From a virus (lineage: Duplodnaviria > Heunggongvirae > Uroviricota > Caudoviricetes > Schitoviridae): a DNA stretch of 64,000 nt. Within the stretch, counting starts at the first letter, position 1. Every line of letters starts with the position of its first letter. The stretch spans positions 1-64,000 of the IMG/VR virus record IMGVR_UViG_2595698760_000001. One strand, given 5' to 3'. Made by a program: the position numbers and the translations under genes. The notes under the pieces were generated by a model that searched no databases, was not told the origin of the DNA, and saw only the letters and a program-made list of their open reading frames with translations. Positions 1-29,996 of the stretch are shown one piece after another.

Positions 1-29
1 GGGGCGCTACACTCTCAAAGTGGAGACTA

Positions 30-38
30 CCCCCCCCC
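30..38. repeat. Homopolymeric C9 tract near the left end of the window
   Basis: Nine consecutive C at 30-38, directly upstream of the first TAAC hairpin. Confidence 0.6.
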
Positions 39-49
39 ATGTTCTACAC

Positions 50-59
50 GCCTAACGGC
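50..59 (+). promoter_or_regulatory. Stem-TAAC-stem hairpin #1 (GCC-TAAC-GGC); candidate hairpin promoter for the virion RNAP
   Basis: Inverted repeat with a TAAC loop about 46 nt upstream of the ATG at 101. The same C-TAAC-G hairpin recurs at 502, 1075 and 5397. The stem here is only 3 bp. Confidence 0.3.
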
Positions 60-100
60 TATTGTGGCACTCATGCCCACTTAACCTTAGGAGTATTATC

Positions 101-430
101 ATGGCTCGTCGTACAACAGTTGGCTCAGTAACTGGCGCACTCATTGACTCAATGGAAGTAGTCAGCAATGTAGCTGGCACTCTCTCTGATTCAGTAGCAC
201 ATGTGCGTACAGCAGTAGAAGGCTTAGGCTATAAGGCTCATGTATTCCGTGAGTCAGCAAAGCTGGATGCACAAATCGAACTAGGCAAGATGAAGTCTGA
301 CAAGACTCTCGCTGCCAAAGTTGACTTAGCTAAGCAGAAAGCTGAAGTACAACGCTTAATGCAAACAGACAAAGAACTTGCTGCTGTCTGGAATGAAGTT
401 GACGCTGAAGTTAACAAGTGGTTTGAGTAA
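101..430 (+). CDS. Hypothetical early protein (coiled-coil-like, 109 aa)
   Basis: AGGAG Shine-Dalgarno then ATG at 101 inside track ORF 62..430. Charged K/E/A-rich sequence. Confidence 0.6.
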   Translation: MARRTTVGSVTGALIDSMEVVSNVAGTLSDSVAHVRTAVEGLGYKAHVFRESAKLDAQIELGKMKSDKTLAAKVDLAKQKAEVQRLMQTDKELAAVWNEVDAEVNKWFE

Positions 431-435
431 CCTAT

Positions 436-453
436 GGCTCCCTAAAGGGAGCC
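436..453 (+). terminator. GGCTCCC-TAAA-GGGAGCC hairpin immediately after the stop codon (no U-tract)
   Basis: Perfect 7-bp stem with a 4-nt loop starting 6 nt after the stop at 430. No T-run follows, so it may be a terminator or an RNA stability element. Confidence 0.35.
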
Positions 454-501
454 TAAACCCTATCTACACAACTACACAAAACATTGGATAGTTCGGTAGT
501 G

Positions 502-515
502 TGACCTAACGGTCA
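502..515 (+). promoter_or_regulatory. Stem-TAAC-stem hairpin #2 (TGACC-TAAC-GGTCA)
   Basis: 5-bp perfect stem with a TAAC loop. Its 3' arm overlaps the ATG at 515, and the next in-frame ATG at 545 lies 37 nt from the loop centre. Confidence 0.4.
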
Positions 516-781
516 TGTTAGTTAACTCTAACAGGACATCTCCAATGCTCGCCTTTGAACTCACTCAAGTAGAAATCCGTACTGAATTCGACTTCATCAC
601 TTTGCAGCTTGACCTGCAAATCATTCAAAGAAAGCTCACTGCCCTAAATAAACAAGTGGACTATTGCCTAATAGAACACGACAAAACAGGTGCTGCCAAA
701 GTCATGAGAGTAATCGAAGAATGGCAATTCACCTATGAAGAACAAATCGTCATCCTAAATAACCTGTATGGGAATATCTAA
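515..781 (+). CDS. Hypothetical early protein (88 aa; alternative start at 545 gives 78 aa)
   Basis: Track ORF. If the hairpin at 502-515 is a promoter, the ATG at 545 in the same frame is the likelier start. Confidence 0.5.
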   Translation: MLVNSNRTSPMLAFELTQVEIRTEFDFITLQLDLQIIQRKLTALNKQVDYCLIEHDKTGAAKVMRVIEEWQFTYEEQIVILNNLYGNI

Positions 782-782
782 A

Positions 783-938
783 ATGCTCTATCCATTGAAC
801 CAAGCACAGAAATACACTCCTCGTTATGACCTCATCAAACAAGTTGCAGAGAAGCTAGATGCTGAACGTGCTCGCTCTGAACAAGAAGACAAAACCATTG
901 AAGTCCTCAGGACTACGGAGCAAGTATGGCTACGTTAA
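783..938 (+). CDS. Small hypothetical protein (51 aa)
   Basis: ATG at 783 two nt after the preceding stop. Below the 60-aa threshold of the ORF track. Protein-like composition. Confidence 0.35.
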   Translation: MLYPLNQAQKYTPRYDLIKQVAEKLDAERARSEQEDKTIEVLRTTEQVWLR

Positions 939-1033
939 ATAAAGACATTCGTGAAGCTAAAATAAACAAAGTCCTCATTGGACTGTTTATTCTGGTTGCC
1001 ACAGTTGGCCCTTCAGTGGTCAACATGCTCTAA
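926..1033 (+). CDS. Small hydrophobic peptide (35 aa, single predicted TM)
   Basis: GGAG Shine-Dalgarno 8 nt upstream of the ATG at 926. Hydrophobic core LIGLFILVATVG. Confidence 0.3.
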   Translation: MATLNKDIREAKINKVLIGLFILVATVGPSVVNML

Positions 1034-1038
1034 ATCCT

Positions 1039-1058
1039 GGTGCTGCTTCGGCGGCACC
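1039..1058 (+). terminator. UUCG-tetraloop hairpin (GGTGCTGC-TTCG-GCGGCACC) in the intergenic region
   Basis: 8-bp stem with one G·U pair and a TTCG loop, followed by T-rich tctgctcatttgtt. It sits just upstream of TAAC hairpin #3, giving a terminator-promoter tandem. Confidence 0.4.
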
Positions 1059-1074
1059 TCTGCTCATTTGTTAT

Positions 1075-1088
1075 GGCCCTAACGGGCC
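1075..1088 (+). promoter_or_regulatory. Stem-TAAC-stem hairpin #3 (GGCCC-TAAC-GGGCC)
   Basis: 5-bp GC stem with a TAAC loop, about 50 nt upstream of the ATG at 1132. Confidence 0.45.
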
Positions 1089-1131
1089 TTCTGGCAATAA
1101 TGCCAAACCTTTTAAATTCGGAGAATTAAAT

Positions 1132-1518
1132 ATGTCTATCTTAAACGCTGTTGCTCAGGCTGCTACTTCAACTCCTGCTACCACCTCTACCAAATCACAG
1201 CGTAAGCCTGCTGAATTGTGGGTGAACATCGGTATCGAACTGCCGAATGGCCAGTTCATCAAGCTGCCTTACAACCTGCCGCTCGACGATATGAACAAGC
1301 TGGAAATGCGTGGTCAGAATCAGGAGTGGTTGCAGGAAGCACAGGCACGTAACATGCTTCTGGACGTGCTGAAACAGCAGGCCAGCTCACTGCCTCAGGG
1401 CGAGTCTCAGGTGTTGGGTGAACTCAAAGTTCAACTGTTCCGCCGCTCAGCAGATGCGTCTGTTGACGAAGGCGAGAACCCACTGATGGCTGCTCTGATG
1501 CAGGCACTCAACAAATAA
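1132..1518 (+). CDS. Hypothetical early protein (128 aa)
   Basis: GGAGA Shine-Dalgarno. The leader and first codons (CGGAGAATTAAATATGTCTATC) are nearly identical to those of the gene at 5444. Followed by an intrinsic terminator. Confidence 0.65.
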   Translation: MSILNAVAQAATSTPATTSTKSQRKPAELWVNIGIELPNGQFIKLPYNLPLDDMNKLEMRGQNQEWLQEAQARNMLLDVLKQQASSLPQGESQVLGELKVQLFRRSADASVDEGENPLMAALMQALNK

Positions 1519-1525
1519 TCTCATT

Positions 1526-1558
1526 GCTCACTCCTTCGGGAGTGGGCGTTATTTTTTC
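1526..1558 (+). terminator. Rho-independent terminator (GCTCACTCC-TTCG-GGAGTGGGC followed by a T6 run)
   Basis: 9-bp stem with a UUCG tetraloop followed by ttattttttc. Confidence 0.8.
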
Positions 1559-1717
1559 ACTGGTGATAGTCCATGGAAATATTGCGTATCATCGACCTCA
1601 TTCATGTTGCACTCGTAATTGATTATGGTGCTATGAGCCATCACTTAGAAATGAAGGAATACATCGAATATGTCGGTGTAGATATTACAGTCCTGGGCCA
1701 ATGCACAGAGGTATGCA

Positions 1718-1894
1718 ATGGGATACACCTCAATCACTGCGATACTTAATCTCCTAAATGATGCGTTAGCTGAATGGGCTGAAGATAATCCTGATGCTTA
1801 TAAAGCAGTAAGAGATTGTCCTGTTCTGAAAGTAATAGATGACCAGCTTGAGCATCTAACTAATGTTAAGACTGGTAAGCTATGGCTAACATAA
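1718..1894 (+). CDS. Small hypothetical protein (58 aa)
   Basis: AGAGG Shine-Dalgarno 9 nt upstream of the ATG at 1718. Clean 58-codon ORF missed by the 60-aa track threshold. Confidence 0.4.
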   Translation: MGYTSITAILNLLNDALAEWAEDNPDAYKAVRDCPVLKVIDDQLEHLTNVKTGKLWLT

Positions 1895-2050
1895 TGTTTA
1901 TTCTGGTGTGTCTTGATGACTGTTTAGAAGCAACACATAGCAGAACCAAACATACCAAATATAAATACTGGGTAATAGATAACGGCTTAACTCTCATTAA
2001 TGATGGGACGTGTAAAGCAACATCCTTACTGGATAAGTGGAGAACAAGTT

Positions 2051-2233
2051 ATGCAATTGTCAGAGCTGATAAGAGTCTTTACTGAGCACTGTCACATGGA
2101 GTGGGCATTCGGTATGTCCATGGCAGAAATGGCATTGCCACCTGCCTGCTATGAGGCAGAGAAAAACCTGCAACTCATCAACCTGTTGAACAGTCGTGAG
2201 CAGGTAGGTGAATTTTATAAACCTAAATGGTAA
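2051..2233 (+). CDS. Small hypothetical protein (60 aa)
   Basis: GGAGAA Shine-Dalgarno 6 nt upstream of the ATG at 2051, inside track ORF 2000..2233. Confidence 0.35.
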   Translation: MQLSELIRVFTEHCHMEWAFGMSMAEMALPPACYEAEKNLQLINLLNSREQVGEFYKPKW

Positions 2234-2421
2234 AAACCAAAAACCGAGCCATGTCGGCTAAAGGGTGCCTAAATGCTAAGGTATGAAATGCCCAGGCTGG
2301 ATTTACTGGGAATCCTGGATAATCTGTTCATCTTTCGGGAGTTCATTGATGGCACTCCAGAGGGTGGCACCAGCCTCATGTATCGGATGATGGAGTACCA
2401 TCTTGACCCGGAGTTAGACCA

Positions 2422-2586
2422 ATGAACATTCATGAAATCATCCGGTATTACCTTCCCTATTTCGATTCCCATAATCGAAAGAGCTTTGACCAGAGGTTAT
2501 ACCTAACCTCTCGTACAATCTCTCGTCGTCAGTATGCGAGGATGTGGGAACCCTGCTTACTGGAGCATCTGCATGGCAATAGATAA
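2422..2586 (+). CDS. Small hypothetical protein (54 aa)
   Basis: ATGA start/stop overlap with the upstream 50-aa ORF 2273..2425. Protein-like sequence MNIHEIIRYYLPYFDSHNRK. Confidence 0.35.
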   Translation: MNIHEIIRYYLPYFDSHNRKSFDQRLYLTSRTISRRQYARMWEPCLLEHLHGNR

Positions 2587-2899
2587 ACCACCATTGAGCC
2601 GGCTGGTATGGGTTGTCTACAACACCCTGGGAGGCAGAAAGCCTCATCCTGTACCTCTGGGCAGGGAAGCAAATGAGCTTCTCAGAACGCTCCAGACACC
2701 GTACTGGAGAGCCTATCGAATGAGGAAATATGGCCATTGAGTATCAGTGAATTATTACTGCAGCGTGTGCCTGGTCAGGGAATACGAACTGTATTATCTG
2801 AGATTAGCTCACACGGAGTTATTCCAAAATGGTGGCCGGCTCACCTAATGGCAGCACGACTATGCACCTATCAGAAATAGTTAATCTGTTTATTAACCG

Positions 2900-3145
2900 G
2901 TGGCCAAAGAGAATGCCAACAGGAATTATGTCTCACACTTTCATTATGCAAATAGTGGCTGTCAAAGACCGTCCTCAATTAATAAGGATACTGACGTGAA
3001 CCATCAACTGCTGCTTATATTGGAACAGAACTGGGCCACCATGGAAGGCACCATCCTCAGGGGTGGAAGGAACAATGGCTGGAAGCTGATGCGTACTCTG
3101 CTTGACCTGTCAGGCAAGAGAACCAAAGCACGCTGGAACTGCTAA
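2900..3145 (+). CDS. Hypothetical small protein (81 aa)
   Basis: Track ORF with a GTG start. Its stop is adjacent to the start of the 3145 ORF. Confidence 0.25.
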   Translation: MAKENANRNYVSHFHYANSGCQRPSSINKDTDVNHQLLLILEQNWATMEGTILRGGRNNGWKLMRTLLDLSGKRTKARWNC

Positions 3146-3484
3146 TGGGCACCGGCAGTATCATCCACCTGTATGTGCTTGCCACCATGGATGTACAGCC
3201 TACGGCGCCAGGCTACGATGCAGTGATGGGCTACACCAATCTGGTATGGAACAATTTCCCAAATGACCCAGAACTCTCAACCCTCCTGCACGATACCGCT
3301 CAGCAGAGTGCTATTCGCTGCACTGTACTGGCAATGCCAACCGACTGAGTGGACAGACTGGGAATCCGTCCCAGACTGCATGAACGGGAGCCTATATTTC
3401 CATGGCGACAAGTGCCTCATCTCCACCCTGGTCAGAGCCTGGCAACAAGACAGACTCGACTCCCTATTTACTTAGCCGCTTGCT

Positions 3485-3781
3485 GTGGCTCTATTACGAG
3501 AGGTCGTCATGCGACGAAACAATCAGTACGGATTTTACGGACGCAGCAGTAAACAAATACTGCTCGATGAAGTGTCTCGACCGGATTCACCTATTAACCC
3601 TGCTTCGATTCAGTTCGTCATAGCGGCTGCACACCTGGCATTGAAAGATGCCTATAACTTTGGGACGACACCGCGGCAACGTAAGCGTCAGACCAAATTC
3701 GCTAACCGCTTCAAAACCCATCTGTCAGTGACGAGGCACATGTATGAGTTATTCGGGTGTAACGGTATCGAGTATCGTTAG
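3485..3781 (+). CDS. Hypothetical small protein (98 aa), the longest ORF in the block
   Basis: Track ORF. Basic protein. Confidence 0.3.
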   Translation: MALLREVVMRRNNQYGFYGRSSKQILLDEVSRPDSPINPASIQFVIAAAHLALKDAYNFGTTPRQRKRQTKFANRFKTHLSVTRHMYELFGCNGIEYR

Positions 3782-4477
3782 GCTGTTCCTGCCTATTGCA
3801 CGAGACCCCAAATATCATCGTATTCCTGCCGGCCGTAAACGTGGGTGGATATGTCGAATTGGCAGAGCCAAAATCGGCATGACACTCATGAAGTTCAACC
3901 GCATGAACCATCAAGACAGAGAGGAATATAATGCCTGGTTCATACACAACGATTACCGCCGTTATGAGGCCACTCATACGGATGATGCACTACGAGTCCT
4001 TCCATCTGGATGACCCCAGAGTAAAAGAGCTTGTAATGGCTCTCAGCCGTGCTGACGGCAGAACCGTCCAACTGTGTATTCACCTTGCAAGGCTGGGCTA
4101 TGCAGATAACTGAAATCATTTACATCATGTATGCCACCAACCATAACGGCTGGGCACTCAATAAAGAGTTTGCCCTGCGGTCACCACTGACCATAAGTCG
4201 TGGCTGGTGGATACTGCAGGCGAACCACTATGAGCTGCTTGAACGTGTTGTTGGCAATAAGGTGGTGCCTGATTAACCGGTATCTGGGGGAGGACTTCGA
4301 CCGAACCATGGACAAATACCTGCGCCAGGAGTTTGGCTGTCAGTTCATACCAGAGCAATATCCACCAAGTCTCTCTATGAGACTGTCTTCTTCGGTTTCC
4401 AGAAATGCGCACAATTAACCTGCTGCGGATAATGATGCGGTTGCACAGCCGAACGCATCTAATCACAACAGCCTGCA

Positions 4478-4729
4478 TTGGTCGTGGCTATGACCAAAAA
4501 CGTGGGCTGCTTCAATACCAATTCATCAAACAACTGGGAGCTGCCTATGGAGATGAGTCAAATAGTTTGCTTATTCCTGAAGAGAACAAACCGACGCTCT
4601 AAGCGTTCTTTGAAGGGATGGGTATCAAGCCAGCGTCTCAAGGAGATAACGTCTCAGGTAGCCATACAGCGCTTCTGTGACCGTATGGAGAAGCTCTATG
4701 CTCATATCCATAATCTGCAAGATAGCTGA
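4478..4729 (+). CDS. Hypothetical small protein (83 aa; internal GGGAG Shine-Dalgarno with ATG at 4547)
   Basis: Track ORF. An internal ATG preceded by GGGAG suggests a shorter product. Confidence 0.25.
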   Translation: MVVAMTKNVGCFNTNSSNNWELPMEMSQIVCLFLKRTNRRSKRSLKGWVSSQRLKEITSQVAIQRFCDRMEKLYAHIHNLQDS

Positions 4730-5136
4730 ATCTGCCATCCGTACTGACGACGTTAACTTCGAGCTGTACTGGTGGGCCTGCCAATGGCACAACGCCAGAG
4801 CCGGCTATGTGGAAAACAGCCTGACCCTCAAATTGCTTCTTCTGGAGCAAGACAATGAACATCACCACCATCCTGTATCTGTACCTGCTGCAGCAAAACC
4901 GGGTAGCAACATTCCTCATCCCTGAGGAGCTGGTGTACCTGGGGAACGACTGCCGTAAGTCAGGAGCCACCAACAACCTATGGCTAATAAACGAACGGTA
5001 TCTTACATCCTTGCGAGATACCTTAAAGGCTGCGACAAGCAAGCCGACCTGAGCTATGCACTGTGCCGTGACTGGCATGAGTACATGGACTTCTCAATCA
5101 CCAAGCGATACCGACTAAGAGGAATGGCCCTGGCCA

Positions 5137-5367
5137 TTGTGGAAGCGTATGGCCCAATCCCACCAGAGGTTTATTGACTTCGCTGGCTCAGCACTATTGG
5201 GCTGGGAGCCAGACGAAGCTGTACTGGTATGCGAAATCGTGTACCTGATTTATTGGACAACACCTGGCAATGAGCAATTCGGGCACCGTGCTGAATTTGA
5301 TGTTATGGGCAGCGGTGGCCTGATGAATCAGCTCTGCCGAATCAATGAGGAGGACATTCCGTTCTGA
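5137..5367 (+). CDS. Hypothetical small protein (76 aa)
   Basis: Track ORF, the last one before TAAC hairpin #4. Confidence 0.3.
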   Translation: MWKRMAQSHQRFIDFAGSALLGWEPDEAVLVCEIVYLIYWTTPGNEQFGHRAEFDVMGSGGLMNQLCRINEEDIPF

Positions 5368-5396
5368 CCTCTCTTTTCTTTGTTGCTCCGCTGCGT

Positions 5397-5410
5397 CGGC
5401 CTAACGGCCG
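5397..5410 (+). promoter_or_regulatory. Stem-TAAC-stem hairpin #4 (CGGCC-TAAC-GGCCG) heading the DUF2493-RNAPII operon
   Basis: 5-bp GC stem with a TAAC loop, about 41 nt upstream of the ATG at 5444. The downstream leader duplicates that of the 1132 gene. Confidence 0.45.
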
Positions 5411-5443
5411 TGTCGGTTTCTATCTATCAATCGGAGAATAAAT

Positions 5444-5638
5444 ATGTCTATCAAACCAATCGTTCATGAATACAAGGTGCATTACTCACGAGCTGAACGT
5501 GTGTGGTCTGTCAGTACCAAAAAGGGACTGACGCATCTGATTCGCCTGAACACCAAGTTCTATTACGTGGACAAGAAGCCTTATCGCTATCTGCGTGATG
5601 CAATCATGGCTGTCCTGTTACGGGATGAGGTCGTATGA
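5444..5638 (+). CDS. Hypothetical protein (64 aa), first gene of the operon
   Basis: GGAGA Shine-Dalgarno. The start context CGGAGAATAAATATGTCTATC is shared with the ORF at 1132. ATGA overlap with the next gene. Confidence 0.6.
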   Translation: MSIKPIVHEYKVHYSRAERVWSVSTKKGLTHLIRLNTKFYYVDKKPYRYLRDAIMAVLLRDEVV

Positions 5639-5991
5639 ATGTCATCGTTGCTGGAGGCCGGGACTTCACTGATACGGAGCGTATGCACCGTGAACTCATC
5701 ATCCTTTGTAAAGCTGGCCACGTTGATGCCGATGCCACCCTCGTATGTGGTATGGCTCGTGGTGCAGACATTACTGCATTCCGTCTATGGAAGCAGTTTG
5801 GCAATCCGATAATCGAGATGCCGGCTGACTGGGATAGCTGGGGCAAGCGAGCTGGCTATATCCGTAACACGGAGATGGCCCGCAAAGCTGATGTGCTGGT
5901 GGCATTCTGGGACGGTGAGTCCCGTGGCACCGGCCACATGATTAGCACCATGGCTGCGATGAACAAGCCTGTCTATGTCGTGAGGTACTGA
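5635..5991 (+). CDS. DUF2493/SLOG-family Rossmann-fold protein (YspA/DprA-LOG-like)
   Basis: Motifs VIVAGGRDF, GMARGAD, PADWDSWGKRAGYIRN, FWDGESRGTGHMI and KPVYVV are typical of the DUF2493 family. Confidence 0.6.
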   Translation: MNVIVAGGRDFTDTERMHRELIILCKAGHVDADATLVCGMARGADITAFRLWKQFGNPIIEMPADWDSWGKRAGYIRNTEMARKADVLVAFWDGESRGTGHMISTMAAMNKPVYVVRY

Positions 5992-6182
5992 TGAGCCAAC
6001 TCATTAATAAGCTGCGCCGAGCCATCAAACACCATGTGGCTGCTCAGGCTGAACTGGACTGGAAGGGTAGTCGTCATCCCGACGACTGGCCGGCCATTGA
6101 CCGGGAGGCTGCTCGTGCAAAGAAACGCCTCGACGAGGTGATTGCGTCTATTCAACTGAAACTGGAGTTCCCTGATTCATGA
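5991..6182 (+). CDS. Hypothetical protein (63 aa)
   Basis: Overlapping junctions with both neighbours. Confidence 0.5.
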   Translation: MSQLINKLRRAIKHHVAAQAELDWKGSRHPDDWPAIDREAARAKKRLDEVIASIQLKLEFPDS

Positions 6183-6985
6183 AAGCTGATACCCAACGTC
6201 TCATTGAGACCATGTATAGCAAGCACCAGACCATGGACTTGCTGATGAGTGAGTTCAAGAACGAACCATTCATAACCAACCTCGTTGACCAGTCTGGCCT
6301 GGAGGCTGACTTCTGTTATGCCCTGTTATGCCAGATGGCGCTGCACAAGCGTGCCAAGGTGGATGTGCTGGTAGGTGTAATGGCTCGCCACGGTGAGACG
6401 TTGCAACAGGTAACAGACATGCTTGTTTCGGCTGCAGAGGCTGACCTCGTAGATTTTAATCCTGCGATTCACCAGTTCATCATTAAGTGGCAACCCGAGC
6501 AAAAGGTGTATGACCTGATTGATAAATATCAGTTCCTGCCACCGATGATTGTGCCGCCGCTGCCGGTAACCGGTAACAAAGGCCGTGGCCACCTGACCTG
6601 TAAGGACAGTCTGATTCTGAAGAACAACCACCATGACGGAGACATCTGTCTGGATGTGGTGAACCTGAAGAACCAGATTCCCCTTCAGATAAACGTGGAT
6701 GTCGTAATGGGCATCCGCAACAAGTGGAAGAACCTCAATCGCTGTAAGCCTGGCGAAACCTTCGAGGACTTCCAGAAGCGTGTCGAAGCGTTTGAACGTT
6801 TCGAGAAGCTCACCATGAAAGACATGGCGCTCATGGTCAATAACGACAATGAGTTCTACTTCACTCATGCGTATGACAAGCGTGGCCGCAGCTACTGCAG
6901 CGGTTACACCATCAACTATCAGGGCAATGACTACCAGAAGGCAGTCGTTGAATTCAAAGACGAAGAAATCGTAGAGGGCTTCTAA
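6179..6985 (+). CDS. RNA polymerase II small subunit (N4 gp15-like, 268 aa)
   Basis: Size and position immediately upstream of the catalytic subunit, as in N4 where gp15 is 269 aa. No catalytic motifs are expected in this subunit. Confidence 0.55.
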   Translation: MKADTQRLIETMYSKHQTMDLLMSEFKNEPFITNLVDQSGLEADFCYALLCQMALHKRAKVDVLVGVMARHGETLQQVTDMLVSAAEADLVDFNPAIHQFIIKWQPEQKVYDLIDKYQFLPPMIVPPLPVTGNKGRGHLTCKDSLILKNNHHDGDICLDVVNLKNQIPLQINVDVVMGIRNKWKNLNRCKPGETFEDFQKRVEAFERFEKLTMKDMALMVNNDNEFYFTHAYDKRGRSYCSGYTINYQGNDYQKAVVEFKDEEIVEGF

Positions 6986-7237
6986 ATGGCTAATATGCAG
7001 CAGCAACTGACCGAACTGAAAGAAGTGGCAGTAGCAATGAAGAACAACCGTATCCGCATCCGTGAAATCTTCTGTGACAAGAACCCAGAGTGCAAAGCAG
7101 CCTGCGGCTGTCAGCCTGATGGGAAGAACTACGACGACTCCAAGTGTCCGTTGTTCAAACATGATGCCAAGGGCATCGAAGACGAACTCGACTTCGAGTA
7201 CAACCAGGCAATCATTCTGGGGAACATTACCGAATGA
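6986..7237 (+). CDS. Cys-rich small protein (83 aa)
   Basis: Motif CDKNPECKAACGC...C. Inserted between the two RNAPII subunit genes. Confidence 0.5.
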   Translation: MANMQQQLTELKEVAVAMKNNRIRIREIFCDKNPECKAACGCQPDGKNYDDSKCPLFKHDAKGIEDELDFEYNQAIILGNITE

Positions 7238-7419
7238 CATTCGTCTGCGCATTTCTCACTATCGTCCACCTGGCGATGACCGGCGCATTAGTCTGGCTCT
7301 CTGGTGTCTGCTATAGAGAGAAGCGGATTAGTAACGCCAAGTTTTACGCAGTGGGTGCAGCATTTCTCGCGGTGCCCACAGCTATCTGGGCAGCAAATTT
7401 AATCCTTCGTATTTCATAG
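7234..7419 (+). CDS. Small membrane protein (61 aa, 2 predicted TM)
   Basis: Two hydrophobic helices. ATGA overlap with the upstream gene. Confidence 0.5.
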   Translation: MTFVCAFLTIVHLAMTGALVWLSGVCYREKRISNAKFYAVGAAFLAVPTAIWAANLILRIS

Positions 7420-7428
7420 GAACCAATC

Positions 7429-8631
7429 ATGCAACAATTCAATGGCGCACAGTATCTGAAGATGGACATCGCTTCAAAGTTTGGTCTGGACAAAGAGAAC
7501 TGGGATGTTCGCCTGGATTGGGTCCGGGAGAACGAGCACCGTCTCGAAGAACTGGTATCGCAGGCTGACGAGTCAGCCGGCTTCCTCGCTGGCGTTATGG
7601 CCTTACGGAAAGCTCAATCCGGCAAAGCGACTGGCTATACCATTTCTCTGGATGCGACAGCATCCGGTGTTCAGATTCTGGCTGCACTGTCCGGGTGTGA
7701 GAAATCAGCCCGGGCCTGCAACCTGATTGATACGGGTAACCGTGAAGATGCGTACACCATCGTCTACAAGGCGATGAATGAGCGTCTGGGCGCAGTAGGC
7801 TATGCACCTCGCAGTAACGTGAAGACGGCAGTGATGACGTCTCTGTATGGCTCAAAGGCTGAACCACGCAAGGTATTCGGTGAAGGCTCCAAGGAGCTGG
7901 CCGAGTTCTATAACACCATGCCAGTGGAACTGCCTGGTGCCTGGGCACTGAACGAAGACCTGATTAACCTCTGGCGCTCTGACGTGTACAAGCACCAGTA
8001 CACCCTGGCCGACGGCTATGAGGTGTCACTGAAGGTGATGGACGGCGTAGTCGAGTCAGTGTACATCGCTGGCATGGAGTACGAAGTCATCCGCCATGTG
8101 AACCAGCCTAAGCAGCATGAGGTATCTCTGGCTGCGAACATCGTGCATAGCATCGATGGCCTGGTGGTACGTGAGATGCAGCGCCGCTGTCAGTATGACG
8201 TGGAGTTGGTGAAGCAGGTGATGGCCATTAGCACTACCGGCCTGAGCACCTCTCGCAAGAAGGATACTGAGCTGCTGCGTCTGCTGACGCTGTATCGTGA
8301 ATCCAAATTCATGAGTGCTCGTATCTTCCAGTACCTGGATGAGCTGAATGCCGGCCACCTGAAGGCCGACGAGAAGCGTGAAATCAACATCCTGGCACAG
8401 GGTATGCTGAACCATAAATCATTCCCGCTGCTGACTATCCATGACTGCTTCCGCTGCAGTCCGAACCATGGTGACCACATGCGTTACCACTATGCCGAAA
8501 TCATGAGCCAGTTGGCTCGTAGCGAGATGCTGTCACATATCGCTTCACAGATTACCGGCACCAAAATGGCTGTGACCAAGAAGGGCAACATTGCTGCTGC
8601 CATCCTTGAGTCCGAATACGCTATCTGCTGA
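7429..8631 (+). CDS. RNA polymerase II catalytic subunit (T7-like single-subunit RNAP, N4 gp16-like)
   Basis: Motif A LDATASGVQILAA resembles T7 DGSCSGIQHF. Motif B RSNVKTAVMTSLYGS resembles T7 RSVTKRSVMTLAYGS. Motif C IHDCFRC resembles T7 HDSFGT. Confidence 0.85.
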   Translation: MQQFNGAQYLKMDIASKFGLDKENWDVRLDWVRENEHRLEELVSQADESAGFLAGVMALRKAQSGKATGYTISLDATASGVQILAALSGCEKSARACNLIDTGNREDAYTIVYKAMNERLGAVGYAPRSNVKTAVMTSLYGSKAEPRKVFGEGSKELAEFYNTMPVELPGAWALNEDLINLWRSDVYKHQYTLADGYEVSLKVMDGVVESVYIAGMEYEVIRHVNQPKQHEVSLAANIVHSIDGLVVREMQRRCQYDVELVKQVMAISTTGLSTSRKKDTELLRLLTLYRESKFMSARIFQYLDELNAGHLKADEKREINILAQGMLNHKSFPLLTIHDCFRCSPNHGDHMRYHYAEIMSQLARSEMLSHIASQITGTKMAVTKKGNIAAAILESEYAIC

Positions 8632-8637
8632 GAGACT

Positions 8638-8670
8638 GAGCTATCCCTTCGGGGGTAGCTCTTTTTTTTC
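8638..8670 (+). terminator. Rho-independent terminator (GAGCTATCCC-TTCG-GGGGTAGCTC followed by a T8 run)
   Basis: 10-bp stem with a UUCG loop and a T8 run directly after the RNAPII stop codon. Confidence 0.85.
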
Positions 8671-8671
8671 A

Positions 8672-8842
8672 ATGAGTCTCCAGGAAGTGCTCTACCTCAT
8701 GGCAGGGGAGCCAAAGATATTCCATGCCTTGATGGATGACCTGTGGGCAGACGGGGCATTGCGCACACTAAGTGAGGCGCGAATCATGCTGATAGGCACT
8801 GACAAAACACTGGCCAGCCTCTGTAAGAATTACCGGGGCTGA
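8672..8842 (+). CDS. Small hypothetical protein (about 56 aa)
   Basis: ATG at 8672 just after the terminator. No clear Shine-Dalgarno. The longer track ORF 8591..8842 overlaps the RNAPII gene. Confidence 0.25.
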   Translation: MSLQEVLYLMAGEPKIFHALMDDLWADGALRTLSEARIMLIGTDKTLASLCKNYRG

Positions 8843-9568: not shown

Positions 9569-9576
9569 GTCTGGGT

Positions 9577-9605
9577 GGGCCGGAAGCGGCCCTCTTTTTT
9601 CGCTT
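9577..9605 (+). terminator. Rho-independent terminator (GGGCCG-GAAG-CGGCCC followed by a T-run)
   Basis: 6-bp GC stem followed by tctttttt cgctttttcg. Confidence 0.8.
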
Positions 9606-9643
9606 TTTCGTTTCCTTTTAATTAATTCCCCTCGGAGATAGTC

Positions 9644-11832: not shown

Positions 11833-11857
11833 CTAAAACAACTATTCTCCGAATTTT

Positions 11858-11886
11858 GCCCTGGCCTATGCCGGGGCTTTTTTTAT
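11858..11886 (+). terminator. Rho-independent terminator (GCCCTGGC-CTAT-GCCGGGGC followed by a T8 run)
   Basis: Stem with one G·U pair followed by ttttttta. Confidence 0.7.
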
Positions 11887-11903
11887 GGAGAAGGAGCCAT
11901 TAA

Positions 11904-29927: not shown

Positions 29928-29949
29928 ACCCGCTTTTATTTCTAACCAT

Positions 29950-29977
29950 AAAAGGTCACAATTCGTGGCCTTTTTTT
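29950..29977 (+). terminator. Rho-independent terminator (AAAGGTCAC-AATTC-GTGGCCTTT followed by a T7 run)
   Basis: 10-bp stem with one G·U pair followed by ttttttt. Confidence 0.8.
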
Positions 29978-29996
29978 ATGCCCAACCGGAGCAATC

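What the first reader, a model, noticed from the sequence alone, without database searches (positions are those of the whole stretch)
1560..5380. 3.8-kb early block with no ORF above 98 aa and no hairpin promoter; dense tiny overlapping ORFs biased to the + strand
ORFs of at least 60 aa are about four times more frequent on the + strand than the − strand (about 20 versus 5). Several sub-60-aa ORFs have good Shine-Dalgarno sites and ATGA junctions (1718-1894, 2051-2233, 2273-2425, 2422-2586). That pattern fits an array of 40-100-aa host-takeover mini-proteins typical of N4-like early regions but invisible to standard gene callers. A decayed or frameshifted region is the alternative reading, for example 3145..3348 and 3349..3552 are in the same frame and separated only by a TGA. 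The block lies after a terminator at 1526-1558 and before hairpin #4, so how it is transcribed is unclear.
Basis: partly seen in the sequence, partly recalled or inferred. Interest (0 to 1): 0.55.

Follow-up and report, generated by a model that had tools for sequence, protein, structure and literature searches.

The report
Array of tiny phage early genes
The 3.8-kb block is a tightly packed run of about 23 real but very small, fast-turning-over protein genes in the early region of the N4-like Erwinia phage vB_EamP-S6; most are already annotated in GenBank, and this layout is ordinary for this phage family.

Summary
The window is bases 1-64000 of Erwinia phage vB_EamP-S6 (Schitoviridae, Waedenswilvirus). 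There are 19 ORFs of at least 60 aa on + and 5 on -, against 4.4 and 6.4 in shuffles. A strong terminator lies at 1525-1558, and no vRNAP-type hairpin occurs before 5397-5410.

The main interpretation, an array of real mini-genes, is supported:
- In comparisons with eight related genomes or contigs, dN/dS is well below 1 for most + strand mini-ORFs.
- dN/dS is about 1 for the - strand ORFs and for 3349-3552.
- Shine-Dalgarno sites are enriched.
- The period-3 signal is present but weak.

The "decayed/frameshifted" alternative is not supported. "Invisible to gene callers" is wrong, because GenBank already lists 19 CDS here (gp006-gp024). Several S6 gene models do look wrong or missing: the gp009 start, and 2737-2880, 3263-3475, 3509-3781, 4200-4418 and 4547-4729.

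All block proteins are ORFans. They have no Pfam or PHROG hit and no phage hit outside the genus. The block lies between homologues of N4 gp2 and gp8. Its gene content turns over quickly, and its amino-acid composition is atypical.

Transcription is most likely by read-through of the leaky gp2 terminator. This is inferred, not shown.

Verdict: an ordinary, already annotated feature of low novelty.

The parts
1525..1558 (+). Intrinsic terminator after gp005 (the N4 gp2 homologue). Only about 14 nt, holding a GGTGAT Shine-Dalgarno site, separate it from the gp006 ATG.
   Evidence: -16.9 kcal/mol. The sequence is conserved in Fifi011, L006 and L009, and Pastis has a perfect 9-bp stem.
1573..1749 (+). 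gp006, 58 aa
   Evidence: dN/dS 0.20-0.36, p 0.001-0.02. 31% identity in the Pastis lineage.
1718..1894 (+). gp007, 58 aa. Found in the S6/Fifi lineage only.
   Evidence: dN/dS 0.23-0.27, p<=0.002.
1882..2085 (+). gp008, 67 aa
   Evidence: dN/dS 0.09-0.19, p 4e-7 to 1e-4.
2051..2233 (+). gp009, re-modelled as 60 aa (GenBank start is 2114, giving 39 aa). It is the most conserved block gene.
   Evidence: 82-88% identity in all relatives, all called as 60 aa. dN/dS is 0.08-0.10 against the Pastis lineage. It is the only block gene shared with the distant contig L015. A profile search of 1.84 billion proteins found only two clusters.
2273..2425 (+). gp010, 50 aa
   Evidence: dN/dS 0.17-0.31.
2422..2586 (+). 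gp011, 54 aa. ATGA-coupled to gp010. Patchy distribution.
   Evidence: Absent from Fifi011, L006, L009, Pastis and L012. 64% identical over 98% of its length in L013, p=5e-5.
2573..2740 (+). gp012, 55 aa
   Evidence: dN/dS 0.10-0.29, p down to 1e-6.
2737..2880 (+). Unannotated ORF, 47 aa, TTG start overlapping the gp012 stop.
   Evidence: dN/dS 0.28-0.38, p 0.005-0.03. The substitution phase fits this frame.
2829..2999 (+). gp013, 56 aa
   Evidence: dN/dS 0.20-0.31.
2996..3145 (+). gp014, 49 aa
   Evidence: 90-92% identity, dN/dS 0.06-0.08, p<=3e-6.
3145..3348 (+). gp015, 67 aa
   Evidence: dN/dS 0.26-0.50, p 0.04-0.09. Codon score +0.31.
3263..3475 (+). Unannotated ORF, 70 aa. The start is uncertain.
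   Evidence: Its TAG at 3473-3475 is conserved in six genomes. This frame is annotated in Fifi011 (gp82), Pastis (00101) and L012. In 3401-3472 this frame is the constrained one, not the gp016 frame.
3402..3623 (+). gp016, 73 aa. Probably real only from about 3477 onward. Overlapped on both sides.
   Evidence: dN/dS is 0.30-0.57 in 3510-3620 and 0.12-0.47 in 3477-3509, but about 1.0-1.5 in 3402-3473. The peptide WLY(F/Y)E.SSCD...RF is conserved.
3509..3781 (+).
   Evidence: The ATG at 3509 is conserved in six genomes. dN/dS is 0.2-0.64 in 3623-3778. The frame is annotated in Fifi011 (gp81), Pastis (00102) and L012.
3744..4013 (+). gp017, 89 aa
   Evidence: Absent from the Fifi lineage. 28-42% identity in Pastis, L012 and L013, dN/dS about 0.4.
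3931..4113 (+). gp018, 60 aa
   Evidence: dN/dS 0.41-0.52. p=7e-4 against L007.
4100..4276 (+). gp019, 58 aa
   Evidence: dN/dS 0.30-0.63. Present in Pastis.
4200..4418 (+). Unannotated ORF, 72 aa (GTG start; the true start is uncertain).
   Evidence: dN/dS 0.32-0.54, p about 0.01 in three pairs. Annotated in Pastis as 00105.
4405..4602 (+). gp020, 65 aa. Patchy distribution.
   Evidence: Present in L006, L008 and L007 (dN/dS 0.36-0.69). Absent from Fifi011 and Pastis.
4547..4729 (+). Unannotated ORF, 60 aa
   Evidence: dN/dS 0.15-0.28, p 3e-5 to 9e-3 in six genomes. Annotated in Fifi011 (gp78) and Pastis (00107).
4698..4925 (+). gp021, 75 aa. The C-terminal third is not conserved.
   Evidence: dN/dS 0.13-0.58. 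Coverage is 0.67-0.72 in L006 and L008.
4855..5052 (+). gp022, 65 aa. The weakest call in the block.
   Evidence: dN/dS about 0.63, not significant. Absent from L007 and Pastis. The substitution phase in 4861-4980 favours this frame.
4980..5177 (+). gp023, 65 aa
   Evidence: dN/dS 0.21-0.44, p 5e-4 to 0.04.
5149..5367 (+). gp024, 72 aa
   Evidence: dN/dS 0.03-0.32, p down to 1e-13.
5397..5410 (+). vRNAP-type hairpin CGGCC[TAAC]GGCCG ('hairpin #4'), upstream of gp025 (the N4 gp8 homologue). It marks the right boundary of the promoter-less block.
   Evidence: gp025 matches PF25713 N4_GP8 at E=2e-20.
1075..1088 (+). vRNAP-type hairpin GGCCC[TAAC]GGGCC upstream of gp005. It is the nearest upstream promoter candidate for read-through into the block.
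   Evidence: The position is conserved in all relatives, and the Pastis lineage has a TATC loop.

Best explanation
The block is a promoter-less, tightly packed polycistronic array of about 23 distinct, unrelated mini-genes (47-90 aa). All lie on the + strand, between the homologues of N4 gp2 (gp005) and N4 gp8 (gp025), in the early left arm of the N4-like phage vB_EamP-S6.

Shown here:
- The ORFs are real coding sequences under purifying selection.
- They are ORFans restricted to Waedenswilvirus-like phages.
- The gene set turns over between relatives by gain, loss and replacement, while the architecture is kept.
- No vRNAP hairpin lies inside the block in any of nine related sequences.
- A conserved intrinsic terminator sits directly in front of the first gene's SD and ATG.

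Inferred:
- The injected virion RNA polymerase starts at the hairpins upstream of gp001, gp002 and gp005.
- Most transcripts stop at the gp005 terminator, which would make the gp2 homologue abundant.
- A fraction reads through. It transcribes the whole block at a lower level and continues into gp025 and the RNAPII genes.
- The mini-proteins are accessory early proteins that act on host targets (takeover, anti-defence), as the adjacent gp8 does in N4.
For: Identity and existing annotation.

ORF excess on +.

Coding evidence:
- dN/dS is below 1 with p<0.01 in several independent pairs for gp006, 007, 008, 009, 010, 012, 013, 014, 4547-4729, gp023 and gp024. It is below 1 for most of the others.
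- The S6/Fifi011 substitution phase follows each gene's third codon position.
- The gene's own frame is the best of six in 18 of 23 genes.
- SD sites are enriched, and period-3 z = 5.

Non-coding controls:
- The - strand ORFs 3940-4119, 4158-4478 and 4638-5078 give dN/dS 0.7-1.4. 2438-2737 gives 0.51-0.88, not significant.
- The + frames 3102-3266 and 3349-3552 give about 0.9-1.5 against Fifi011, L006 and Pastis. 3349-3552 gives 0.54-0.62, not significant, against L012 and L013.

ORFan status:
- No PHROG hits and no Pfam hits.
- tblastn against 50,697 phage records hits only S6, Fifi011 and Pastis.
- gp009 and gp024 have only close relatives among 5.8 billion proteins, and a gp009 profile finds two clusters among 1.84 billion.
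- There are no paralogues within the block.

Architecture conserved, content variable: L006, L012, L013 and L015 all carry 16-23 mini-genes upstream of the gp8 homologue. Presence and absence are patchy.

Promoters and terminator:
- Four hairpins lie at conserved positions and none lies in the block.
- The terminator is conserved.
- No sigma-70 excess: 5 found against 12 expected.

Support for read-through:
- The same terminator-SD-ATG layout occurs at several other S6 sites.
- In N4, gp8-gp14 follow a terminator with no hairpin until about 4555.
- In LUZ7, more than 60% of terminators have efficiency below 50%, and sequential read-through is the rule (PMC9163698).
- N4 vRNAP transcription pulls in the next 10-40 kb of DNA (PMC3715699).

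Functional context: gp025 matches PF25713, 'N4 DNA replication inhibitor'. Early genes of N4-like phages are held to interact with the host (PMC9569702).
Against: - There are no expression data for this phage, so the timing (early vs middle) and the read-through are inferred.
- A codon-usage model trained on long S6 genes scores the block genes near zero (median -0.08, against 0.30 for 25 other small S6 genes, p=1.5e-5). Period-3 power is half that of the flanks. The coding signal is therefore unusually weak.
- A few members rest on thin evidence: gp022 is not significant, and gp015, gp016, gp017 and 3263-3475 are borderline.
- Many predicted overlaps are long (30-86 nt), so some starts are probably wrong.
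- The terminator looks strong (10-bp stem, UUCG loop, U-run), so read-through might be low.
- No function could be assigned. The AlphaFold models of gp009 and gp024 have pLDDT 54-60.
Confidence: 0.72

Rival explanations
1. The block is a middle-class operon. It would be transcribed mainly by the phage RNAPII (gp028+gp031) with the gp2 homologue, from a short AT-rich promoter at or near the terminator T-run, and not by vRNAP read-through.
For: - N4 RNAPII uses a minimal AT-rich promoter spanning -7 to +2, and its transcripts cover the left half of the genome (PMC4496689).
- The LUZ7 cluster of 29 small ORFans is covered by middle transcripts (PMC9163698).
- The T-rich stretch TTATTTTTTCAC lies directly upstream of gp006, and similar T-runs precede many middle genes.
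Against: - The block lies between early hairpins and upstream of the RNAPII genes, on the path vRNAP must travel to bring P4 and the RNAPII genes into the cell under the N4 entry model.
- No S6 middle-promoter motif could be defined. The only shared intergenic words are terminator T-runs.
- The two modes are not exclusive.
Confidence: 0.2
2. The block is a decayed or frameshifted remnant of larger genes, and the mini-ORFs are fragments.
For: - 3145-3348 and 3349-3552 share a frame across a single TGA. 3263-3475 and 3509-3781 share a frame across a single TAG plus 30 nt.
- The codon score and period-3 signal are weak.
Against: - dN/dS for 3349-3552 is 0.93-1.14 against Fifi011 and Pastis, and 0.54-0.62 (not significant) against L012 and L013.
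- ORF boundaries are conserved. The TAG at 3473-3475 and the ATG at 3509 are kept in six genomes that differ at 30-40% of sites.
- Individual mini-ORFs show dN/dS of 0.03-0.4.
- No block protein or concatenate matches any larger protein in Pfam, PHROGs or 50,697 phage records.
- Relatives carry the same number of equally small genes.
Confidence: 0.03
3. Only a minority of the ORFs are genes. Much of the block would be non-coding leader or spacer, or a structured RNA, with chance ORFs.
For: - Block composition is shifted toward what random sequence would encode: Cys 4.6x, His 2.4x, Arg and Trp 1.7x.
- Codon scores are near zero.
- Gene callers disagree between S6, Fifi011 and Pastis.
Against: - The + strand ORF excess is far beyond shuffles.
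- Frame-specific third-position substitution is seen along nearly the whole block.
- At least 11 genes have p<0.01 for purifying selection, and most of the rest have dN/dS below 1.
- SD sites are enriched.
- No Rfam family, tRNA or repeat was found.
Confidence: 0.05

Closest known systems
Early left-arm gene cluster of coliphage N4 (gp3-gp7, between gp2 and gp8; and gp8-gp14)
   Same: - Same genomic position, between the gp2 and gp8 homologues and upstream of the RNAPII subunit genes.
- Same strand, with small tightly packed genes.
- Hairpin promoters for the virion RNA polymerase flank the cluster, and a terminator follows gp2.
- In N4, gp8-gp14 likewise follow a terminator with no hairpin.
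   Different: - There is no detectable sequence similarity to N4 gp3-gp7.
- S6 has about 23 genes in 3.8 kb, against 5 genes in 1.4 kb in N4.
- N4 has a hairpin-like element about 50 nt after the gp2 terminator, and S6 has none.
- The S6 hairpins have a 4-nt loop (TAAC), not the 3-nt loop of N4.
ORFan mini-gene clusters of N4-like Pseudomonas phage LUZ7 (early genes 2-11; right-end cluster gp87-gp115)
   Same: - Runs of tens of small genes with no database similarity, on the strand transcribed early and middle.
- Few promoters, so expression depends on long polycistronic transcripts and leaky terminators (PMC3715699, PMC9163698).
   Different: - Different genus and host, with no sequence similarity.
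- LUZ7 transcription has been mapped experimentally. S6 transcription has not.
Early host-takeover / ORFan regions of other lytic phages (for example T4 and T7 early genes)
   Same: Small, fast-evolving, non-essential-looking early genes of unknown function, with atypical composition (own knowledge).
   Different: Those regions are transcribed by host RNA polymerase from sigma-70 promoters. Here no sigma-70 excess is seen, and the context is a virion-RNAP early region.

Membership tests
Schitoviridae (N4-like) early-region small-gene cluster | Lies in the left arm, on the early strand, between vRNAP hairpin promoters and upstream of the two RNAPII subunit genes. | tested here: met
   The window is S6 1-64000. 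Hairpins are at 50-59, 502-515, 1075-1088 and 5397-5410. The RNAPII genes are at 6179-6985 and 7429-8631. The flanks are gp005 = N4 gp2 family (PF26984 in homologues; phrog_4099) and gp025 = N4_GP8.
Schitoviridae (N4-like) early-region small-gene cluster | The ORFs are real protein-coding genes (conserved, under purifying selection, with translation signals). | tested here: met
   Evidence is weak for gp022 and borderline for gp015, gp016 and gp017.
Schitoviridae (N4-like) early-region small-gene cluster | Transcribed early by the injected virion RNA polymerase. | not testable with these tools
   There are no transcriptome data. No hairpin lies inside the block, and a terminator lies in front of it. 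Read-through is inferred from N4 and LUZ7.
Schitoviridae (N4-like) early-region small-gene cluster | The products act on host processes (takeover or anti-defence). | not testable with these tools
   No family or fold could be assigned. The only support is context: the adjacent gp025 belongs to the N4 gp8 replication-inhibitor family.
Homologues of N4 gp3-gp7 | Detectable sequence similarity to the N4 proteins. | tested here: not met
   tblastn of the concatenated block proteins against 50,697 phage records (a collection that holds N4, NC_008720) hits only S6, Fifi011 and Pastis. There are no PHROG or Pfam hits.
Pseudogenised / frameshifted region | Neutral evolution (dN/dS about 1), ORF boundaries not conserved, and similarity to longer intact genes elsewhere. 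| tested here: not met
Non-coding RNA, tRNA or repeat array | A match to an RNA family, tRNA genes, or tandem or direct repeats. | tested here: not met
   Rfam gives nothing in the block at E<=0.1. There are no tRNAs. Only one trivial 19-nt repeat was found.
Paralogous mini-protein family (duplicated array) | Sequence similarity among the members of the array. | tested here: not met
   All-against-all BLASTP gives a best E of 0.03.

The most novel reading that the evidence does not exclude
The block could be a terminator-gated hot-spot of gene birth and overprinting. Under this reading, its expression is set by regulated read-through of the conserved gp2 terminator. Its proteins have near-random composition because many arose de novo or by overprinting; one example is the gp016 frame at 3477-3620, constrained on top of the N-terminus of 3509-3781. 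Only gp009 would be an old, functionally fixed member.
Probability: 0.15. Interest if true: 0.5.

Novelty: already known. Interest (0 to 1): 0.2.

Why it matters
The practical value is modest.
- The work corrects the S6 gene map. It adds five conserved unannotated mini-ORFs and one corrected start, and flags one probably overprinted gene.
- It shows that the mini-ORFs are selected coding sequences, not noise.
- It identifies gp009, gp012, gp014 and gp024 as the most constrained candidates for functional screens. Toxicity, anti-defence and host-target pull-downs are the obvious assays, in a phage considered for fire-blight biocontrol.
- It does not reveal a new kind of system.

Tried and rejected
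1. A concatenated 1462-aa query against the 5.8-billion-protein index returned nothing, not even the S6 proteins themselves. The exact look-up shows those proteins are in the collection, so I treat as a technical failure of the query form, not as evidence.
2. AlphaFold2 models of gp009 (8 sequences) and gp024 (4 sequences) gave pLDDT 59.5 and 54.3. These are too low for a meaningful fold search, so none was run.
3. Pfam and PHROGs gave no hit for any of 24 block proteins.
4. A search for a shared middle-promoter motif in 13 S6 intergenic regions found only terminator T-runs.
5. Rfam, tRNA and tandem-repeat scans were negative.
6. I first judged gp016 a mis-call, because other genomes annotate the 3263-3475 and 3509-3781 frames and the stop and start are conserved. 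Segment-wise dN/dS then showed that the gp016 frame is the constrained one in 3477-3620. I now keep all three as probable overlapping genes.
7. gp011 first looked S6-specific, but it has a 64%-identical homologue in L013.
8. The global S6/Fifi011 nucleotide alignment is unreliable in 2400-2550, 3300-3450, 3750-4050 and 4350-4650 because segments have been replaced. Protein-guided alignments were used there.

Full report
**What the window is.** Bases 1-8000 are 100% identical to Erwinia phage vB_EamP-S6 (HQ728266/NC_019514; Schitoviridae, Waedenswilvirus), starting at base 1 of the record. The finding therefore lies in the left (early) arm of an N4-like phage. The GenBank record already annotates 19 CDS in 1560-5380 (gp006-gp024), all on + and all 39-89 aa. 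The claim that the mini-ORFs are invisible to standard gene callers is wrong. Callers also annotate equivalent arrays in the relatives Fifi011 and Pastis and in metagenomic contigs.

**The observation.**
- There are 19 ORFs of at least 60 aa on + and 5 on -. 500 dinucleotide-preserving shuffles give 4.4 +/- 1.8 and 6.4 +/- 2.2, and none reaches 19.
- The two strands carry equal numbers of stop triplets (167 vs 172). The asymmetry lies in how the stops are arranged, as expected for tiled coding frames.
- The longest + ORF is 98 aa. The - strand has ORFs of 99, 106 and 146 aa, so the title holds only for the + strand.
- The terminator (1525-1548 plus a T-run; -16.9 kcal/mol) is real.
- 'Hairpin #4' (5397-5410) is real.

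**Are the ORFs genes?** I collected eight related sequences:
- Fifi011 (78-86% nucleotide identity to S6).
- Pastis, much more diverged.
- Logan/NCBI/ENA contigs L006, L007, L008, L009, L012 and L013.

Protein-guided codon alignments and Nei-Gojobori counts give these results:
- dN/dS is 0.03-0.4 with p<0.01 in several pairs for gp006, gp007, gp008, gp009, gp010, gp012, gp013, gp014, 4547-4729, gp023 and gp024.
- dN/dS is below 1 for most of the others.
- The controls mostly behave as non-coding. The - strand ORFs 3940-4119, 4158-4478 and 4638-5078 give 0.7-1.4, and 2438-2737 gives 0.51-0.88 without significance.
- The - strand ORF 2269-2472, antisense to gp010, gives 0.17-0.82 (p=2e-4 against Pastis). 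I read this as a by-product of constraint on gp010.
- The + frames 3102-3266 and 3349-3552 give about 0.9-1.5 against Fifi011, L006 and Pastis. 3349-3552 gives 0.54-0.62, not significant, against L012 and L013.

Other coding signals agree:
- Along the S6/Fifi011 alignment, the most variable codon phase switches exactly where the gene frames switch.
- The gene's own frame is the best of six under a codon model in 18 of 23 genes.
- 15 of 23 starts have a good SD site, against 20% of random positions.
- Period-3 power exceeds shuffles at z = 5.0.

**The 'decay' alternative.** 3349-3552 shows no significant constraint: dN/dS is about 0.9-1.1 against Fifi011 and Pastis, and 0.54-0.62 (not significant) against L012 and L013. 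A six-genome alignment of 3380-3800 shows three things at 30-40% nucleotide divergence:
- The TAG at 3473-3475 is conserved.
- The ATG at 3509 is conserved.
- The stop at 3621-3623 is conserved.

Segment-wise analysis indicates three successive, overlapping genes:
- The 3263-3475 frame is constrained up to its TAG.
- The gp016 frame is constrained only in about 3477-3620.
- The 3509-3781 frame is constrained from about 3623 onward.

This is probable overprinting, not decay. No block protein resembles any larger protein.

**Revised map.** About 23 genes. The differences from GenBank are:
- gp009 should start at 2051 (60 aa), as in every relative.
- Conserved ORFs are missing at 2737-2880, 3263-3475, 3509-3781, 4200-4418 and 4547-4729.
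- gp022 is the weakest call.
- Many predicted overlaps are 30-86 nt. Some reflect lineage-specific C-terminal extensions (gp021), and some probably reflect mis-set starts.

**What the proteins are.** They are ORFans.
- No PHROG or Pfam hit for any of 24 candidates.
- tblastn of the concatenate against 50,697 phage records hits only S6, Fifi011 and Pastis.
- gp024 and gp009 have only close relatives among 5.8 billion proteins.
- An exhaustive profile search with the gp009 family finds two clusters among 1.84 billion representatives.
- There are no paralogues within the block.

Gene content is patchy:
- gp007 and gp013-015 are found only in the S6/Fifi lineage.
- gp017 is found only in S6 and the Pastis lineage.
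- gp020 is present in L006, L007 and L008 but not in Fifi011.
- gp011 is found only in S6 and L013.
- The more distant contig L015 shares only gp009.

The architecture is nevertheless kept. Each relative carries 16-23 mini-genes between the gp2 and gp8 homologues.

Composition is atypical:
- The codon-model median is -0.08, against 0.30 for 25 other small S6 genes (p = 1.5e-5).
- Cys is 4.6x, His 2.4x, and Arg and Trp 1.7x the level in long S6 proteins.
- Period-3 power is about half that of the flanks.

Structure prediction for gp009 and gp024 failed, with pLDDT 54-60.

**Transcription.** Each genome has exactly four C[TAAC]G hairpins, or C[TATC]G in the Pastis lineage. They lie upstream of gp001, gp002, gp005 and gp025, and their stems differ by compensatory changes. 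None lies inside the block in any of nine sequences.

The terminator after gp005 is conserved, including in Pastis. It is followed by only a T-run, a GGTGAT SD site and the gp006 ATG. There is no room for a separate promoter, and sigma-70-like sites are fewer than chance.

This layout is not special to the block:
- Terminator-SD-ATG junctions recur through the S6 middle region.
- In N4, gp8-gp14 follow a terminator with no hairpin until about 4555.
- In LUZ7, more than 60% of mapped terminators have efficiency below 50%, and sequential read-through builds the operons. The gp2 analogue Drc accounts for up to 64% of phage transcripts (PMC9163698).
- N4 vRNAP transcription draws the next 10-40 kb of DNA into the cell (PMC3715699). 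The polymerase must therefore pass such terminators.

The most likely mechanism is partial read-through of the gp005 terminator. This would give high gp2-homologue expression and lower expression of the block, with transcripts continuing into gp025 and the RNAPII genes. This is inference, and a contribution from RNAPII (middle) transcription cannot be excluded.

**Function.** Function can be inferred only from context.
- The gene directly downstream, gp025, belongs to PF25713, the N4 gp8 family described as a DNA replication inhibitor. It is a 64-aa protein.
- Early genes of N4-like phages are thought to target host processes (PMC9569702).
- Host takeover or anti-defence roles are therefore plausible for the block proteins, but untested.

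**Verdict.** This is an already annotated instance of a known feature of N4-like phages. The small additions are a corrected gene map, a probable overprinted gene, and a ranking of the most constrained members.

Noticed in passing
window 50-59, 502-515, 1075-1088, 5397-5410 (plus the equivalents in L005, L006-L009, L003, L012, L013, L015): The putative virion-RNAP promoter hairpins have a 4-nt loop: C[TAAC]G in the S6/Fifi lineage and in L015, and C[TATC]G in the Pastis lineage. They lie at four conserved positions, and their stems differ by compensatory changes. N4 and LUZ7 promoters have 3-nt loops. The loop switch between lineages suggests co-variation with the polymerase.
   Followed up: partly
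window 2051-2233: GenBank gp009 (2114-2233, 39 aa) is probably truncated. All relatives encode a 60-aa protein that is 82-88% identical from the ATG at 2051. It is the only block gene shared with the more distant contig L015 (49% identity).
   Followed up: yes
window 3402-3781: This is probable overprinting. The gp016 frame is constrained only in about 3477-3620, where it overlaps the poorly conserved N-terminus of the unannotated 3509-3781 gene. The TAG at 3473-3475 and the ATG at 3509 are conserved in six genomes. 3263-3475 and 3509-3781 share one frame, interrupted by that single TAG.
   Followed up: partly
window 1573-5367: The block proteins have unusual composition compared with long S6 proteins: Cys 4.6x, His 2.4x, Arg and Trp 1.7x, with Ala, Gly, Lys and Val depleted. 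Their codon-model scores are near zero, unlike 25 other small genes of the same genome. This shifts them toward what random sequence would encode.
   Followed up: partly
window 31-39; L010 (N4) about 32-40; L003 (Pastis) about 1080-1090: A run of 9 C lies near the left genome end, just upstream of the first hairpin. It is present in S6, N4 and Pastis.
   Followed up: no
window 8632-8698, 9569-9643, 11833-11903, 19187-19222, 29928-29996: Intergenic regions of the middle region consist of an intrinsic terminator followed directly by the next gene's SD and ATG. No shared promoter motif was detectable.
   Followed up: partly
window 1132-1518 and 5444-5638: gp005 is the N4 gp2 homologue (RNAPII cofactor; phrog_4099, and PF26984 in close homologues). 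gp025 is the N4 gp8 homologue (PF25713, E=2e-20). Both are unnamed in the S6 record.
   Followed up: yes
L005 (Fifi011) record 70180-73949; L012 1308-4811: A second array of small + strand ORFs lies at the other genome end of the relatives, upstream of the gp001 homologue in rotated assemblies. It resembles the right-end ORFan cluster of LUZ7. It has no similarity to the block proteins.
   Followed up: partly
L002/L005 (Fifi011 gp90); L003 (Pastis 00088, 00090); L004 (Pastis 00001): Some product names in the relatives look doubtful. Fifi011 calls the gp2 homologue 'RNAP1 subunit A'. Pastis calls a 59-aa ORF 'terminase large subunit' and an 82-aa ORF 'ribonucleoside-diphosphate reductase subunit'.
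   Followed up: no
window 8621-8668: There is a weak Rfam match to Listeria sRNA sbrA (27.9 bits against a gathering score of 45). It lies on the terminator after gp031 and is almost certainly just the terminator hairpin.
   Followed up: no
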